In this document: positions 38,801 through 45,892 of the stretch, one piece after another
How positions within the stretch are numbered: the first letter of the stretch is position 1
Layout: the number at the start of each line of letters is the position of its first letter
IMG/VR virus record: IMGVR_UViG_648276653_000019
From: a virus
Lineage: Duplodnaviria; Heunggongvirae; Uroviricota; Caudoviricetes
DNA: 45,892 nt
Direction: 5' to 3' (one strand)
Position numbers: made by a program

Positions 38801-41800
38801 CGGCCACAATGCACGGCCCGGTCACCGTAACCAACGATGTGACAGCAGGCGGTAAGAGCCTGATGACGCACATGCATGGTGGGGTTGAGCATGGTAACGA
38901 CAGCACCGGGGGGCCTGAATAATGCGATACCGACGTGAAGACGATGACGGTGATTACACCTTTGGACAGGGTGATGATACCTGGCTGGTAAACTCTCCTG
39001 AGGCCGTAGCGCAGGCCATTAAAACGCGCTTTCTGCTTTGGTACGGGCAGTGGTTTCTGGACACCACAGAAGGTACGCCGTGGATTCAGTCCGTTCTGGG
39101 TAAGCAAAAGCCGGATACCTACAACCTCGCTATCCGTAAGCGGATCCTAGAAACGCAGGGGGTTAGCTCAATCACTGCATTTAACACCACCGTTGACGGT
39201 ACCACGCGCCGTGTAACGTTCACAGCAACGGTAGAAACCCTCTACGGGACAACCACAGTAACCTCGGAGGCGTAATGTCTTTGGACCTCGACACACTCGG
39301 CTTATCGGCAACGGTAACCGCTGAGGGGATAAGTGCGCCCGACTACCAGACCGTTCTGGACACCATCACTGGTTATTTTCAGCAGATTTATGGCAGTGAT
39401 GCCTATCTCGACCCGGACAGCAAAGACGGCCAGATGGTCGCTCTGGTGGCTCTGGCCATTCACGATGCCAACAACACGGCTATTTCTGTTTACCGGTCAT
39501 TTTCTCCGTCGACGGCGCTGGACGATGCATTAACCAGTAACGTCAAAATTAACGGCATCGCTCGCCGTGCTGCGACAAACTCTACGGTAGATGAGCTGAT
39601 CGAAGGTGAGGCCGGAACGTTGATCACAAACGGGTCTGTGAAAGATGCCAACGGTATCATCTGGAATCTTCCTGCTCAGGTGACAATTGGTATTGATGGG
39701 ACGGTTATTGCTACAGCGACGTGTTCTGTTGCTGGTGCTGTGGCCGCCCCTGCCGGGTCAGTCAATAAGATAAACACCCCGACACGTGGTTGGGTATCAG
39801 TAACTAACCCGCAAGCGGCTACGGTAGGCGTTGCTGCCGAAACAAATGCTGAATTGCGTGTCCGGCAATCACAGAGCGTTGCTTTACCGTCTCTGACGCC
39901 GTTTGAGGCGGTAGATGGCGCGATAGCAAATATCAGCGGCGTAACGCGACACAAGCTGTATGAGAACGATACAGATACCACTGATGCAAATGGCCTGCCT
40001 CCGCACTCAATCGCCGCCATTGTAGAAGGTGGTGATGCGACGGTCATTGCAAACAGCATTCGTGGTGTGAAAGGGCAGGGCGTAACACCCTACGGTAGTA
40101 CGGTGATTGTTGTGCCTGATAAGTACGGAAACCCTCACTCGGTAGGTTTTTCAAGGCCGGTCGATGTACCCATTTACGTCAAAATCACTATCGAACCTCT
40201 TACGGGCTACACATCCCAGGTTGGCGAAGAGATAAAGGCGGCTGTATCTGCCTACATTAACTCACTGGCAATCGGCGCCAGCGTTCTTCTCAGTCGCGTT
40301 TACTCACCGGCTAACCTTGGTGTTGTCAGTGGTGGTAATGCCAGGTATTACGACATTACCGAGTTGCTGATCGGGACGTCTGCCGGTGGCGTAGCCGCGG
40401 CAAACGTGGATATTGCCTTTGACCAGTCAGCATCCTGCGCCGTCAGCAATATTAATCTGGTGGTCTCATGAGCAGATACACTGACCGCATAACAAACTAC
40501 CACGCCGGTAAACCAAAGTTCTTTGCACACGTTGATCTGTCCACCAGGCCACTGAGCGATGTTTCCGATGCAATGTCACGGCTAATACCCGATTTTGATA
40601 TTGATACCGCCATTGGCGTGCAGCTTGACGTTGTAGGCGAATGGGTTGGTCGTTCCCGTCGCGTGGCAACACCGGTAACCGGGATTTATTTTTCGTGGGA
40701 CACCGAACGGGTTGGCTGGGATCGGGGGGTCTGGCAGGGACCATATGACCCAAACGACGGTTTTATCGATCTAAGCGATGAAATATATCGGCTAATGCTG
40801 AAGGTGAAAGTGGCGATAAACAACTGGGATGGTCAGAACGATTCGCTGCCTTCAATTCTTGATGCCGCCCTTGCCGGGTCCGGGATCCGCATGGCTATTG
40901 TCGACAACCAGGATATGTCGATTTCCATCTGGATACTCGGTGACCCATCGGTAGCCCTAAGTGAAATAGACCGGTTAATTCTGGATAGCGCCGTCAATAA
41001 AGGCCCCTTTATCGCATTACCGGCAGATTACGTGCCTTCGCGCTATGACATTAACCCGATTGACCAGGTTAACAGCGAGCTATGGTGGGCGATTCGGAAC
41101 GGTTATATGACGGTTAAAGCCGCAGGGGTTCGTGTCCGTGAAATAGAGACCGTCAGTGATGGTTATCAGTTTTTTGGCTTCGATATCGAAAATGACTATA
41201 TCGCTGGTTTCGACCGCGGGTCATGGGGAGAGCAATTTTAATGGCGACTAACGATTTTAAGCCCTTCGCTACTGGTAGCGGGGCAAACGTATTATCACAA
41301 GCTGATTATGATGCACTGTCGGCCAGAACAACTGGCTTTTTAAGTGGCAAAGCGTCTTCGGCCCAGGTCAACAAAGCTTTAAGGCAGGCATCAACTATTG
41401 CGGCGGTTGTGGCGCAGTTTATTTCGGATAACAGCGGCGATGACACCCTTGATAACGGTAATTTACCTACCTTACTGGCTAGTCTCGAAAGCGCCCTCCT
41501 CAAGTCCTCCCCTGGGCGGTTACAGAATATCGTTATCTTTACCGCAAATGGGACCTACACCCCATCGCCAGGAACCAAACATGTAAAAGTTATTGTTACT
41601 GGCGGTGGCGGCGGTGGTGGTGGTTGTCAGGGAACTTCCGGATCTGAATCAGTTTCAGGTGGCGGCGGCGGTGCTGGTGGTACGGCCATTGGTTATTTTG
41701 CTGTAACTGAATCCAGCTATGCAGTCACTGTAGGTGCTGGTGGTTCTGCTGGCGTTGGTGCTGTCCAGGGTGGAACAGGCGGAACCTCAATCATTAACGG

Positions 41801-44800: not shown

Positions 44801-45892
44801 GAAGTGAGGCTATTTCTGCGATGTTTATTCTGATAATTCCATTATTTAACAGGGGTATATATGGCGCTTAAGCTATTAGCCAATAATAACGCAAAGAGTG
44901 TTCTCGCTGCGGGTATTAGCGCGTCCGCTACCGTTATTACCGTGGGTACCGGAGCGGGGGCTTTATTCCCTTCCCCTGTATCTGGACAGAGTTATTTCAA
45001 ATTAACGATAACCGACGCGGCCACGAAAACAATTTCTGAAATTATGCACGTCACGTCTGTATCCGGTGACGTGATGACAGTAATTCGTGGTCAGGAAGGA
45101 ACTACGGCACGCGTATGGTCAACGAATGACATTGTCGCGAATTTAATGACCGCAGGATCATTGTTATCTTTCCTGCAGATCAGCAATAACCTGTCAGAAA
45201 TTAAAGATGCCGGTGAGGATGCGATAAATGAAGCCCGTTATAACCTCGGAATATCTGATTCCTCTGGTTTTGTCGGGCGTTCTCTTGGCGCTCCGAAAGC
45301 TTTCTATGCAAACGGAACCTATACGCGATCTCCTCTGGCCCGTTATGCAAAAGTAACGTTGACCGGTGGCGGCGGTGGCGGTGGCGGCTGCCAGGCCTCC
45401 AACAATACAGAAACCTTCTCCGGTGCTGGCGGCGGCGCGGGCGCGACCATTATCGTATGGGTTGACCTGTCTGCTGCCAGTTCTTATGCGATTACTGTCG
45501 GCAAGGGTGGTAAGGGCGGAGTTGGCGCAGTAAGTGGTGCGGATGGTGGGGCCACCTCGTTTGCCAGCCTGTTCTCAGCTCCTGGCGGGAAAGGAGGAGT
45601 GAAGTCAGGCGTGTCCAATACCGCCGGCGGCGCCGGAGGTACGGCGGCGACCGGAGATATCAGGATCAACGGTGGTACCGGCTCAGATGGACAGACAGGC
45701 TCAAGCCTTCTGACGGGCAACGGCGGGGCGTCGTATTTTGGCGGCGGTGGCCGGGCGGGTTCTCAGGCCGGTATTGCTGGCGCAGCTCCCGGATCCGGTG
45801 GTGGTGGCGCGTATGACCTTGGGTTTACCGGTACGGCATTTACCGGTGGTGATGGTGCTACTGGCATGGCGATCGTGGAAGAATTCGCGTAA

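What the first reader, a model, noticed from the sequence alone, without database searches (positions are those of the whole stretch)
41241..45892. Tailspike with SGNH esterase domain flanked by two paralogous Gly-rich tail fibre genes
The 803-aa protein (42374..44785) ends in an SGNH/GDSL hydrolase domain with all conserved blocks (GDSN, GVGGS, GTND, H), consistent with a receptor-modifying O-antigen or capsule deacetylase spike, and carries internal tandem ~100-aa repeats. It is AT-rich, preceded by its own terminator, and sandwiched between two fibre genes whose Gly-rich C-terminal domains are paralogous while their N-termini differ. The repeated fibre 3' sequences are a plausible substrate for cassette exchange and host-range switching.
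Basis: partly seen in the sequence, partly recalled or inferred. Interest (0 to 1): 0.55.

Follow-up and report, generated by a model that had tools for sequence, protein, structure and literature searches.

The report
Prophage esterase tail fibre with two glycine-rich fibres
This is the host-recognition end of an E. coli prophage, holding an acetyl-esterase tail fibre between two glycine-rich fibres, all of known kinds; the locus has been rebuilt by recombination, but not through the glycine-rich repeats.

Summary
The 803-aa protein (42374-44785) ends in an SGNH/GDSL esterase domain. Two 100-aa internal repeats (44% identical) model as carbohydrate-binding-like beta-sandwiches. No beta-helix was predicted or matched, so it is an esterase fibre rather than a classical tailspike. 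Both flanking genes end in the Pfam Gly_rich_2 domain. They match the solved fibre of cyanophage Pam3, which fits this prophage's Pam3-type baseplate.

The cassette-exchange idea fails its own test. The two glycine-rich domains are 53% identical as protein, but the longest exact shared DNA word is 15 nt. Each domain is closer to fibres of other phages than to its neighbour.

The locus is still strongly mosaic. Breakpoints fall in fibre 1 near codon 65, in the esterase fibre at codons 73-180, and next to a 655-bp deletion scar at 44815-44857. The esterase-fibre body is 97-99% identical on three different tail types in E. coli and Klebsiella. In 15 of 28 related viral contigs its homologue lies next to a Gin-like invertase gene. 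This window has no invertase.

Esterase fibres of Klebsiella prophages were published in 2026. This is a new member of known kinds and only modestly interesting.

The parts
40468..41241 (+). Baseplate wedge protein (DUF2612 / Phage_Wedge1). It is the last chassis gene before the fibres and is listed as context.
   Evidence: Pfam PF11041, E 2.5e-45. The same genome region also carries Pam3_gp18, Sheath_initiator and Baseplate_J hits.
41241..42122 (+). Fibre 1 (293 aa from ATG 41241; the longer ORF starts at 41223). It has a lineage-specific N-terminal anchor (about 41241-41537) and a Pam3 gp24-type glycine-rich distal domain (about 41538-42119, 36% Gly).
   Evidence: Pfam Gly_rich_2, E 8e-9. 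phmmer to the Pam3 fibre 7yfw/7ypx gives E 4e-6 over aa 77-292. It occupies the position straight after the wedge gene. It is 99-100% identical in three relatives; in strain AZ147 the distal domain is replaced, with DNA homology ending at 41433.
42122..42292 (+). 56-aa ORF overlapping the fibre 1 stop codon (TGATG). It is a candidate fibre 1 assembly chaperone (inferred).
   Evidence: PHROG 18617, function unknown, E 4e-23. No Pfam or convincing PDB match. It sits where Pam3 gp25 and P2 gpG sit. It changes (54% identity) in the one relative where the fibre 1 tip changes. GC is 33.9%.
42340..42364 (+). Terminator-like hairpin AACCGGC-TTAT-GCCGGTT followed by TTTTATT, 16 nt upstream of the esterase-fibre ATG.
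   Evidence: Pattern scan. RNA fold -15.8 kcal/mol, z -2.6. The region is conserved in relatives that share 38868-42591 and beyond. Function was not tested.
42374..44785 (+). SGNH-esterase tail fibre, 803 aa, a chimera of modules.
- N-anchor: aa 1-87 (42374-42634).
- Conserved linker: aa 88-140 (42635-42793).
- Beta-sandwich 1: aa 188-291 (42935-43246).
- Helix: aa 305-332.
- Repeat A: aa 334-440 (43373-43693).
- Helix: aa 443-462.
- Repeat B: aa 466-575 (43769-44098).
- SGNH domain: aa 585-803 (44126-44782).
   Evidence: Pfam and PHROG hits. Self-repeat. AlphaFold2 model. Foldseek hits to carbohydrate-binding modules and the sandwich domains of phage tailspikes. SGNH profile against PDB: 7bxd 4.9e-18, 4q7q, 3dc7, 3bzw. 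Motif positions.
44815..44857 (+). Relic 3' end of a 105-aa gene (annotated UmuD in phage RothC). A 655-bp deletion removed that gene and a 79-aa ORF, which lie between the esterase fibre and fibre 2 in other phages.
   Evidence: Homology with AZ147, PDP110P1, K. variicola and RothC starts at 44815. The window sequence aligns with the end of the 105-aa gene. The deleted stretch corresponds to L008 10404-11058.
44861..45892 (+). Fibre 2, 343 aa. The N-terminal anchor domain is aa 1-110 (44861-45190). A helical stalk follows. The Pam3 gp24-type glycine-rich domain is aa 146-343 (45296-45889, 30% Gly). It is the last prophage gene, about 320 bp from the lambda att core.
   Evidence: Pfam Gly_rich_2, E 4e-14. 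In the model the C-terminal domain has pLDDT mostly above 90. Foldseek: Pam3 fibre 7ypx at E 1.6e-8 and the Bxb1 tail tip 9d93. The N-terminus matches the solved fibre 8jov and is 58% identical to the N-terminus of the ETEC4091 esterase fibre. Position relative to att.

Best explanation
This is the receptor-recognition module at the right end of a temperate, contractile-tailed prophage integrated at the lambda attachment site of E. coli. The prophage has lambda-like regulation and a Pam3/E217-type minimal baseplate. The module encodes three separate receptor-binding proteins, each with a different N-terminal anchor.

1. Fibre 1 occupies the canonical position after the wedge gene. It is a Pam3 gp24-type fibre whose tip is a TNF-like plus glycine-rich lattice domain. 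The overlapping 56-aa ORF is probably its chaperone (inferred).

2. The 803-aa protein is probably a trimeric fibre (trimer state inferred, not tested). After its anchor and a conserved linker come three carbohydrate-binding-like beta-sandwiches separated by helices that look like coiled coils. It ends in an SGNH esterase with Ser596, the Gly and Asn oxyanion residues, and His777. The most likely action is to bind an O-acetylated surface polysaccharide (O-antigen, capsule or another envelope glycan) and strip its acetyl groups. This would let the virion move to the membrane or make binding reversible, as shown for phage G7C gp63.1. Esterase activity has been shown for two SGNH fibres of Klebsiella prophages. 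The substrate and the activity of this protein are inferred.

3. Fibre 2 is a second Pam3-type glycine-rich fibre with its own anchor type. It is conserved under purifying selection and lies next to attP and int in several unrelated phages.

The present gene order arose by ordinary mosaic recombination. The right arm (esterase-fibre body, fibre 2, att arm) is shared at 98% identity with a different prophage type at the same att site. The crossover lies in the conserved linker of the esterase fibre. A 655-bp deletion then brought the esterase fibre and fibre 2 together. The two glycine-rich domains are independent members of a widespread domain family. They are not a recent duplication, and they are not a usable recombination substrate.
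For: Phage type:
- Sheath, tube, tape measure, baseplate hub and Q antiterminator.
- Central spike, Baseplate_J and DUF2612.
- Pam3_gp18, E217_GP41 (weak), Sheath_initiator and Phage_Wedge1.
- A lambda-type integrase with the arm-binding domain, and host ybhC at window 1-1284.
- The att core GCTTTTTTATACTAA and ybhB/bioA just beyond the window.

Esterase fibre:
- Pfam hit above its cut-off.
- The SGNH profile hits four solved SGNH proteins at E 5e-18 to 1e-10.
- The catalytic blocks are conserved.
- The sandwiches match carbohydrate-binding modules and the sandwich domains of phage tailspikes.
- The best matches among viral predicted structures include phage hydrolase and GDSL tail proteins.
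- Published work: SGNH receptor-binding proteins are prevalent in Klebsiella prophages, two are active on p-nitrophenyl acetate, and G7C gp63.1 is a deacetylase (PMC13123978).

Glycine-rich fibres:
-, plus the Pam3 gp24/gp25 description in PMC9608196.

Mosaicism:
- Breakpoints in relatives.
- 98.4% identity to ETEC4091, continuous from 42699 through fibre 2 and attR into the host flank.
- The K. variicola protein is 92% identical overall, almost all of the difference lying before aa 78, on a siphovirus-like tail. DNA identity over the body is 97.6%.
- Deletion scar.

Fibre 2:
- 27 nucleotide differences against AZ147 give only 3 amino-acid changes.
- It is present full length in 69 of 5426 complete E. 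coli genomes at 93-99% identity.

No DNA repeat between the two fibres. The fibre 2 tip is closer to foreign fibres (65-66%) than to fibre 1 (53%, rank 22 of 39).
Against: - The SGNH part of the AlphaFold2 model is low-confidence (pLDDT mostly below 60), so the fold is not confirmed structurally.
- The usual Asp of the Asp-x-x-His block is absent (Ser774), so a Ser-His dyad must be assumed.
- No experiment ties this protein to any substrate.
- The fibre 2 anchor is the type used by the main fibre of a different chassis (ETEC4091 and RothC). Whether it can dock on this virion is unknown.
- In other phages fibre 2 is separated from the tail genes by two non-structural-looking ORFs.
- The chaperone role of the 56-aa ORF rests on position and one case of co-variation.
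Confidence: 0.75

Rival explanations
1. The two glycine-rich 3' ends act as direct repeats, and homologous recombination between them swaps or deletes the cassette in between and so switches host range.
For: The two C-terminal domains are homologous as proteins (53%). They lie in direct orientation 3.6 kb apart. The locus varies among relatives.
Against: - There is no megablast alignment. The longest exact match is 15 nt of GGN codons, and the best blastn pieces are 21-26 nt.
- None of the breakpoints seen in relatives lies in the glycine-rich regions.
- Recombination between the repeats would make a fibre 1/fibre 2 hybrid and delete the esterase fibre. No such product appeared among the loci examined.
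- The domains are not each other's closest relatives.
Confidence: 0.04
2. Fibre 2 is not part of this virion. It hitch-hiked with the att/int arm, or it is an accessory gene used in another context. If so, the 'sandwich' is an accident of recombination and this phage has only two functional receptor-binding proteins.
For: - The fibre 2 N-terminal domain is of the type that anchors the main fibre in the ETEC4091/RothC chassis (58% identity). It resembles neither anchor native to this chassis.
- Fibre 2 always lies next to attP/int, often after a 79-aa ORF and a UmuD-annotated ORF.
- It is found with at least four different tail types.
Against: - The gene is intact and under strong purifying selection in two genomes with this chassis.
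- It is 93-99% conserved in 69 complete E. coli genomes.
- Its N-terminus matches a fibre resolved in a solved phage structure with 18 chains (8jov).
- Its N-terminal domain is combined with alternative tips (Collar, gp53-like) as real fibres are.
- The same order, glycine-rich fibre then SGNH-like fibre then fibre 2, recurs in the distinct DUF2612-bearing phage PDP110P1.
Confidence: 0.15
3. The SGNH domain is not a receptor-modifying enzyme. One option is a cell-wall or lipid-directed tail lysin, like the GDSL domain of staphylococcal phage 80alpha Tal. Another is a catalytically inactive binding module.
For: There is a weak profile hit to the 80alpha tail-associated lysin gp59 (6v8i, E 0.0047). 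The canonical Asp of block V is missing.
Against: - The domain lies at the distal end of a fibre, behind three carbohydrate-binding-like sandwiches. It is not on the central spike or the tape measure.
- The Ser, Gly, Asn and His residues are conserved across homologues.
- Fibres of Klebsiella prophages with the same kind of architecture are active esterases (PMC13123978).
- From general knowledge: E. coli peptidoglycan is not O-acetylated.
Confidence: 0.06

Closest known systems
SGNH-domain tail fibres of Klebsiella pneumoniae prophages (proteins 164_08-KL2 and 174_38-KL55; PLoS Biol 2026, PMC13123978)
   Same: They are prophage-encoded fibres with a terminal SGNH domain and no beta-helix. They are proposed to deacetylate surface polysaccharide. 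Homologues of the window protein at 77-93% identity are annotated in Klebsiella and Raoultella genomes.
   Different: Identity to the two assayed proteins could not be checked, because their sequences are not in the supplements held. The host here is E. coli, and the fibre sits on a Pam3-type myovirus chassis between two glycine-rich fibres.
Phage G7C gp63.1, an O-antigen deacetylase receptor-binding protein (PDB 4QNL by recollection)
   Same: It is a virion-borne SGNH esterase that removes O-acetyl groups from E. coli O-antigen without cutting the chain. It is the functional model for this protein (as cited in PMC13123978).
   Different: No sequence relationship was detected beyond the superfamily. 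No gp63.1 entry appears among the PDB profile hits at E up to 0.1, and no Escherichia phage appears in the tblastn search of 50,697 phage records. G7C is a virulent N4-like podovirus with a branched gp63.1/gp66 complex.
Cyanophage Pam3 tail fibre gp24 with chaperone gp25 (PDB 7ypx, 7yfw; PMC9608196)
   Same: Both window fibres share its TNF-like plus glycine-rich lattice tip. Fibre 1 matches by sequence (E 4e-6) and the fibre 2 model matches by fold (E 1.6e-8, 27-28% identity). The baseplate genes are of the Pam3 type. A small gene follows fibre 1, where gp25 follows gp24.
   Different: Pam3 has a single fibre type, whereas this phage has two plus an esterase fibre. The 56-aa ORF has no detectable similarity to any solved protein and is much shorter than the two-domain gp25. 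Both N-terminal anchors differ from that of Pam3.
Glycine-rich tip proteins of the mycobacteriophage Bxb1 tail tip (PDB 9d93), T-even gp38 adhesins (S16 gp38) and the ALK/LTK glycine-rich domain
   Same: They share the same glycine-rich lattice architecture (Foldseek hits; comparison made in PMC9608196).
   Different: They are only distant structural relatives. The ALK/LTK hits are weak (E about 0.01-0.1).
Invertible host-range segments of phages Mu (G/Gin), P1 (C/Cin) and e14 (P/Pin)
   Same: In 15 of 28 related viral contigs a Gin-like serine invertase gene lies next to the homologue of this esterase fibre. In the one contig examined in detail the fibre faces a second receptor-binding gene, and 190- and 172-nt inverted repeats cover both 5' ends. 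The invertase lies on either side of the fibre gene in different contigs.
   Different: The window has no invertase, no inverted repeats and no opposing gene. Its configuration is fixed.

Membership tests
SGNH/GDSL hydrolase superfamily (Pfam PF13472) | Profile match above the curated threshold | tested here: met
   39.8 bits against a cut-off of 32.9, aa 595-780. The family profile hits solved SGNH proteins 7bxd (4.9e-18), 4q7q, 3dc7 and 3bzw.
SGNH/GDSL hydrolase superfamily (Pfam PF13472) | Block I Gly-Asp-Ser nucleophile, block II Gly, block III Gly-x-Asn-Asp, block V His | tested here: met
   GDSN 594-597, GVGGS 619-623, GTND 659-662 and H777. They are invariant or nearly invariant in 20 homologues. 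Blocks II and III align with solved SGNH proteins. Blocks I and V are read from the sequence pattern only.
SGNH/GDSL hydrolase superfamily (Pfam PF13472) | Asp three residues before the catalytic His (full Ser-His-Asp triad) | tested here: not met
   Position 774 is Ser, and it is Ser or Ala in homologues. A Ser-His dyad or a displaced acid must be assumed. From general knowledge, some SGNH esterases work as dyads.
SGNH/GDSL hydrolase superfamily (Pfam PF13472) | Three-layer alpha/beta/alpha fold | tested here: inconclusive
   The AlphaFold2 model of aa 585-803 has pLDDT mostly 26-77 because the alignment was shallow and closely related. The alternating helix-strand order is compatible but not decisive.
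Receptor-modifying O-acetylesterase fibre (works like G7C gp63.1) | Esterase activity on acetylated host polysaccharide that is needed for infection | not testable with these tools
   Needs biochemistry and genetics. Activity on p-nitrophenyl acetate is published only for two Klebsiella prophage fibres (PMC13123978).
G7C gp63.1 protein family (sequence relatives) | Detectable sequence homology to gp63.1 | tested here: not met
   No gp63.1 entry among the PDB hits at E up to 0.1. No Escherichia phage among 82 phage records hit by the SGNH domain.
Beta-helix tailspike (P22 or pectin-lyase type) | Right-handed parallel beta-helix body | tested here: not met
   The model shows three beta-sandwiches and helices. 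Foldseek matches are to carbohydrate-binding modules and to the sandwich domains of tailspikes, not to beta-helices.
Pam3 gp24-type glycine-rich fibre (Pfam PF21722 Gly_rich_2) | Profile match above threshold in the C-terminal domain | tested here: met
   Fibre 1 scores 36.3 bits and fibre 2 scores 53.5 bits, against a cut-off of 24.3.
Pam3 gp24-type glycine-rich fibre (Pfam PF21722 Gly_rich_2) | TNF-like sandwich plus glycine-rich lattice fold | tested here: met
   In the fibre 2 model the C-terminal domain has pLDDT 86-98. It matches 7ypx (E 1.6e-8), 7yfw (TM-score 0.53-0.63 normalised by target) and 9d93. Fibre 1 was tested by sequence only (7yfw, E 4e-6).
Pam3 gp24-type glycine-rich fibre (Pfam PF21722 Gly_rich_2) | Dedicated downstream chaperone (gp25-like) | tested here: inconclusive
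   A 56-aa ORF follows fibre 1 and co-varies with its tip in one relative. It has no detectable homology to any solved or Pfam family. Nothing follows fibre 2.
Invertible host-range switch (Mu G/Gin type) | Serine invertase gene, plus inverted repeats flanking opposed receptor-binding genes | tested here: not met
   There is no invertase homologue in the window (tblastn best E 9.5). There are no inverted repeats longer than 22 nt. Both features are present in related contig L019. An invertase homologue is present in 15 of the 28 related viral contigs.

The most novel reading that the evidence does not exclude
Fibre 2 and the body of the esterase fibre may be chassis-independent modules.

- Fibre 2 is 92-99% conserved and always sits next to attP/int. 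It occurs on at least four different tail types, including a siphovirus-like one.
- This suggests it docks not on a baseplate protein but on the conserved linker (aa 88-140) present in most of the accompanying fibres. That would form a branched receptor-binding complex that can be moved between myoviruses and siphoviruses as a unit.
- The near-identity of the esterase body (97-99%) in Escherichia and Klebsiella would then point to an O-acetylated envelope glycan shared across genera, rather than a strain-specific O- or K-antigen.
Probability: 0.12. Interest if true: 0.55.

Novelty: new member of a known kind. Interest (0 to 1): 0.3.

Why it matters
It adds an E. coli example to the recently described class of prophage fibres that carry an acetyl-esterase instead of a depolymerase. 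It also gives a clean picture of how such fibres are moved. The same fibre body is grafted through one conserved linker onto three unrelated tail types in two genera. The practical uses are a defined graft point for engineering fibres, and caution when predicting host range from prophage fibre genes. It does not reveal a new mechanism.

Tried and rejected
- AlphaFold2 on the whole 803-aa protein used 20 homologues, all at least 45% identical. It gave confident sandwiches but a poor SGNH domain.
- Both scans of species-representative genomes were unproductive. The first found nothing and the second found one partial Raoultella locus.
- The supplements of PMC13123978 were searched for three conserved peptides, to link this protein to the two assayed Klebsiella fibres. 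There were no occurrences.
- A full-text search for PDB code 8JOV, to identify the phage whose fibre shares the fibre 2 N-terminus, found no paper.
- The 56-aa ORF and the three anchor domains were scanned against Pfam at E up to 10, and the ORF against PDB. Nothing credible came back.
- A whole-protein self-BLAST missed the internal repeat. Comparing segments found it.
- Rejected: that the two glycine-rich genes are a recent tandem duplication.
- Rejected: that fibre 2 is decaying in this chassis. The 272-aa annotation in AZ147 is a start-codon call, and the full ORF is intact.
- Rejected: that a relic inversion system survives in the window.
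Full report
**Setting.** The window holds the host gene ybhC followed by an almost complete prophage.
- ybhC is at 1-1284 on the minus strand (Pectinesterase family).
- A lambda-type integrase with the arm-binding domain is at 1419-2489 on the minus strand.
- The window ends exactly at the stop codon of the last phage gene.
- The identical locus occurs in E. coli assembly GCA_040012095.1. There, the lambda att core GCTTTTTTATACTAA lies about 320 bp further on, followed by ybhB and bioA.
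- The phage has a Q antiterminator, large terminase, portal, major head protein, tail sheath, tube, tape measure and baseplate hub.
- It also has a central spike, Baseplate_J and a DUF2612 wedge protein.
- Precomputed Pfam hits on the same genes include Pam3_gp18, E217_GP41 (weak), Sheath_initiator and Phage_Wedge1.
- It is therefore a temperate myovirus with lambda-like regulation and a 'minimal' Pam3/E217-type baseplate. The finding covers its receptor-recognition genes.

**Checking the observation.** The ORFs are as described.
- The 803-aa protein matches Pfam Lipase_GDSL_2 above the curated cut-off.
- A profile of its last 229 residues hits four solved SGNH proteins at E 4.9e-18 to 1e-10.
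- The motifs sit at GDSN 594-597, GVGGS 619-623, GTND 659-662 and His777, and they are conserved in 20 homologues.
- The Asp normally found three residues before the His is replaced by Ser774.
- There are two internal repeats, aa 343-441 and 478-576, 44% identical (E 5e-32). They show no similarity at the DNA level.
- A hairpin with a T-run lies 16 nt upstream of the ATG.
- The gene is only slightly AT-rich: 47.6% GC against 50.3% for the window.
- Both flanking genes carry Gly_rich_2 domains. These are 53% identical over 196 residues, and the N-termini are unrelated.
Megablast finds nothing, and the longest exact shared word is 15 nt of GGN codons.

**What the proteins are: the esterase fibre.**
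- The AlphaFold2 model has three confident beta-sandwiches, at aa 188-291, 334-440 and 466-575. The last two are the repeats.
- Helices at aa 305-332 and 443-462 separate the sandwiches and look like coiled-coil segments.
- The SGNH part is low-confidence.
- The sandwiches match carbohydrate-binding modules and the sandwich domains of phage tailspikes.
- The best matches among viral predicted structures include phage hydrolase and GDSL tail proteins.
- No beta-helix was predicted or matched. The protein is better called an esterase tail fibre than a tailspike.

**What the proteins are: the glycine-rich fibres.**
- The fibre 2 model is confident in its C-terminal domain (pLDDT 86-98).
- It matches the solved fibre of cyanophage Pam3 (7ypx, E 1.6e-8) and proteins of the Bxb1 tail tip. 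It matches the ALK/LTK glycine-rich domain more weakly.
- Fibre 1 matches the Pam3 fibre directly by sequence (E 4e-6).
- The Pam3 paper describes this tip as a TNF-like domain plus a glycine-rich lattice that recognises the receptor. The fibre there is folded with the help of a downstream chaperone, gp25 (PMC9608196).
- Here a 56-aa ORF overlaps the fibre 1 stop codon. It has no detectable homologues of known function.
- In the one relative where the fibre 1 tip is replaced, this ORF also changes, to 54% identity. A chaperone role is inferred from position and that single co-variation.

**Is the locus variable, and where does it break?** It is highly variable. No complete E. coli genome among 5426 has the whole arrangement.
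- Relatives with the same baseplate carry different genes at the esterase-fibre position: a protein annotated as a sialate O-acetylesterase (767 aa) and unrelated proteins of 694 or 927 aa. The genes downstream also differ.
- Homology to these relatives ends at 42591, 42719, 42786 or 42914, which are codons 73-180 of the esterase fibre.
- In strain AZ147 homology also breaks at 41433, near codon 65 of fibre 1, and resumes at 44815.
- Conversely, the esterase body plus fibre 2 is 98.4% identical to a different prophage type in strain ETEC4091. The identity runs without interruption from 42699 through fibre 2 and attR into ybhB, bio and uvrB.
- A K. variicola prophage with a siphovirus-like tail tip encodes a protein that is 92% identical overall. 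Almost all of the difference lies before residue 78. DNA identity over the body is 97.6%.
- Other E. coli versions carry still other N-termini: the prophage tail fibre N-terminal domain and the T7 fibre N-terminal domain.
- So one fibre body is grafted onto several anchors through a conserved segment, roughly aa 78-140. This segment is also recognised by several separate PHROG families.
- This linker is the real recombination substrate, not the glycine-rich repeats.

**The deletion scar.** In K. variicola, RothC and PDP110P1 a 79-aa ORF and a 105-aa ORF lie immediately upstream of fibre 2. AZ147 has the 105-aa ORF there. The 105-aa ORF is annotated UmuD in RothC but has no Pfam hit here. In the window these are missing. 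The last 40 or so nucleotides of the 105-aa gene remain at 44815-44857, marking a 655-bp deletion.

**The two glycine-rich fibres are not a recent duplication.** The fibre 2 tip is 61-66% identical to the tips of fibres with quite different N-termini in Serratia, Morganella and Klebsiella. It is only 53% identical to fibre 1, which ranks 22nd of 39.

**Fibre 2 is a conserved module in its own right.**
- It is present full length at 93-99% identity in 69 of 5426 complete E. coli genomes.
- It is always the last gene before attP/int.
- It is under purifying selection. Against AZ147 there are 27 nucleotide differences but only 3 amino-acid changes.
- Its first 101 residues are 58% identical to the N-terminus of the ETEC4091 esterase fibre.
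- Those residues also resemble the N-terminus of the RothC tailspike (49%) and of a solved fibre, 8jov.
- So this is a true anchor domain, but it is native to a different chassis. How it docks on the present virion is unresolved.
- The order J, DUF2612, glycine-rich fibre, SGNH-like fibre, fibre 2, attP, int recurs in the distinct phage PDP110P1. The sandwich is therefore not unique to this genome.

**Switching in relatives.**
- Among 28 viral contigs encoding homologues of the esterase fibre, 15 also carry a Gin-like serine invertase gene close to it.
- Contig L019 was examined in detail. The esterase fibre gene faces a second, 1174-aa receptor-binding gene. Inverted repeats of 191 and 172 nt cover both 5' ends. 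The invertase has Resolvase and HTH_7 domains.
- In different contigs the invertase lies on either side of the fibre gene. This is what both orientations of an invertible segment would give.
- Host-range switching of this fibre family therefore probably does occur, by site-specific inversion as in phage Mu.
- The window has no invertase, no long inverted repeats and no opposed gene.

**Mechanism.**
- Shown by sequence or model: the domain architecture, the conserved catalytic residues, the Pam3-type tips, the mosaic junctions and the deletion scar.
- Inferred: the fibre is trimeric; the sandwiches bind a surface polysaccharide; the SGNH domain removes O-acetyl groups from it; the 56-aa protein is a chaperone; and all three proteins are present on the virion.
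- The functional model is G7C gp63.1 together with the Klebsiella prophage SGNH fibres, two of which hydrolyse p-nitrophenyl acetate (PMC13123978).
- The relationship to gp63.1 is functional analogy within a superfamily, not family membership.
- No cultured phage among 50,697 records has a close homologue of this SGNH domain. The best is 38% identity, in a Pseudoalteromonas phage.

**Verdict.** The proposed exchange mechanism is refuted and replaced by better-supported ones. All components belong to described kinds, and prophage SGNH fibres were published in 2026. This is a new member of known kinds and of modest interest. The open points worth testing are how fibre 2 docks, and which acetylated glycan is the target.

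Noticed in passing
window 1-1284 (minus strand): The first ORF of the window is not phage. It is a 427-aa Pectinesterase-family protein, consistent with host ybhC, the gene on the gal side of the lambda attachment site. The lambda-type integrase follows at 1419-2489 on the minus strand.
   Followed up: partly
window 37786-38103 (minus strand): A 105-aa DUF4236 gene lies on the opposite strand inside the baseplate operon, between the hub genes and the central spike gene. It looks like an inserted accessory gene. Relatives L003-L005 have a different gene at this spot.
   Followed up: no
L019 6608-13347; also L016, L018, L020-L027, L032, L033, L035, L039: In related viral contigs a Gin-like invertase gene lies next to the esterase-fibre homologue. 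In L019, the one contig examined in detail, the fibre faces a second receptor-binding gene, with 191- and 172-nt inverted repeats over both 5' ends. The invertase is found on either side of the fibre gene in different contigs.
   Followed up: partly
L008 10537-11093; L010 8479-9035; L007 8479-9035; L002 9530-9847: A conserved gene pair sits immediately upstream of fibre 2 in several phages (L002 has only the 105-aa ORF). It consists of a 79-aa ORF and a 105-aa ORF. The 105-aa ORF begins MGFPSPATDY, which resembles the start of processed UmuD. It is annotated UmuD in RothC but has no Pfam match.
   Followed up: partly
L002 9859-10890 (E. coli AZ147): RefSeq annotates fibre 2 there as only 272 aa, yet the full 343-aa ORF is intact. 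The 272-273-aa protein clusters (P0126, P0127) probably reflect start-codon calls rather than truncation.
   Followed up: yes
L007 (OZ035751, 'Lambdavirus PDP110P1') and H26 (OZ035745, 'Wanchaivirus PDP110P2'): Both records are named after siphovirus genera. OZ035751 nevertheless carries Baseplate_J and DUF2612 genes typical of contractile-tailed phages. OZ035745 shares this prophage's fibre 1 region at 95.7% identity. The taxonomic labels look doubtful.
   Followed up: partly
H102, NZ_CP141750.1 (47,948-bp E. coli plasmid record): A full-length copy of fibre 2 (95.5% identity) lies on a record classed as a plasmid. It may be a phage-plasmid or an unintegrated phage genome.
   Followed up: no
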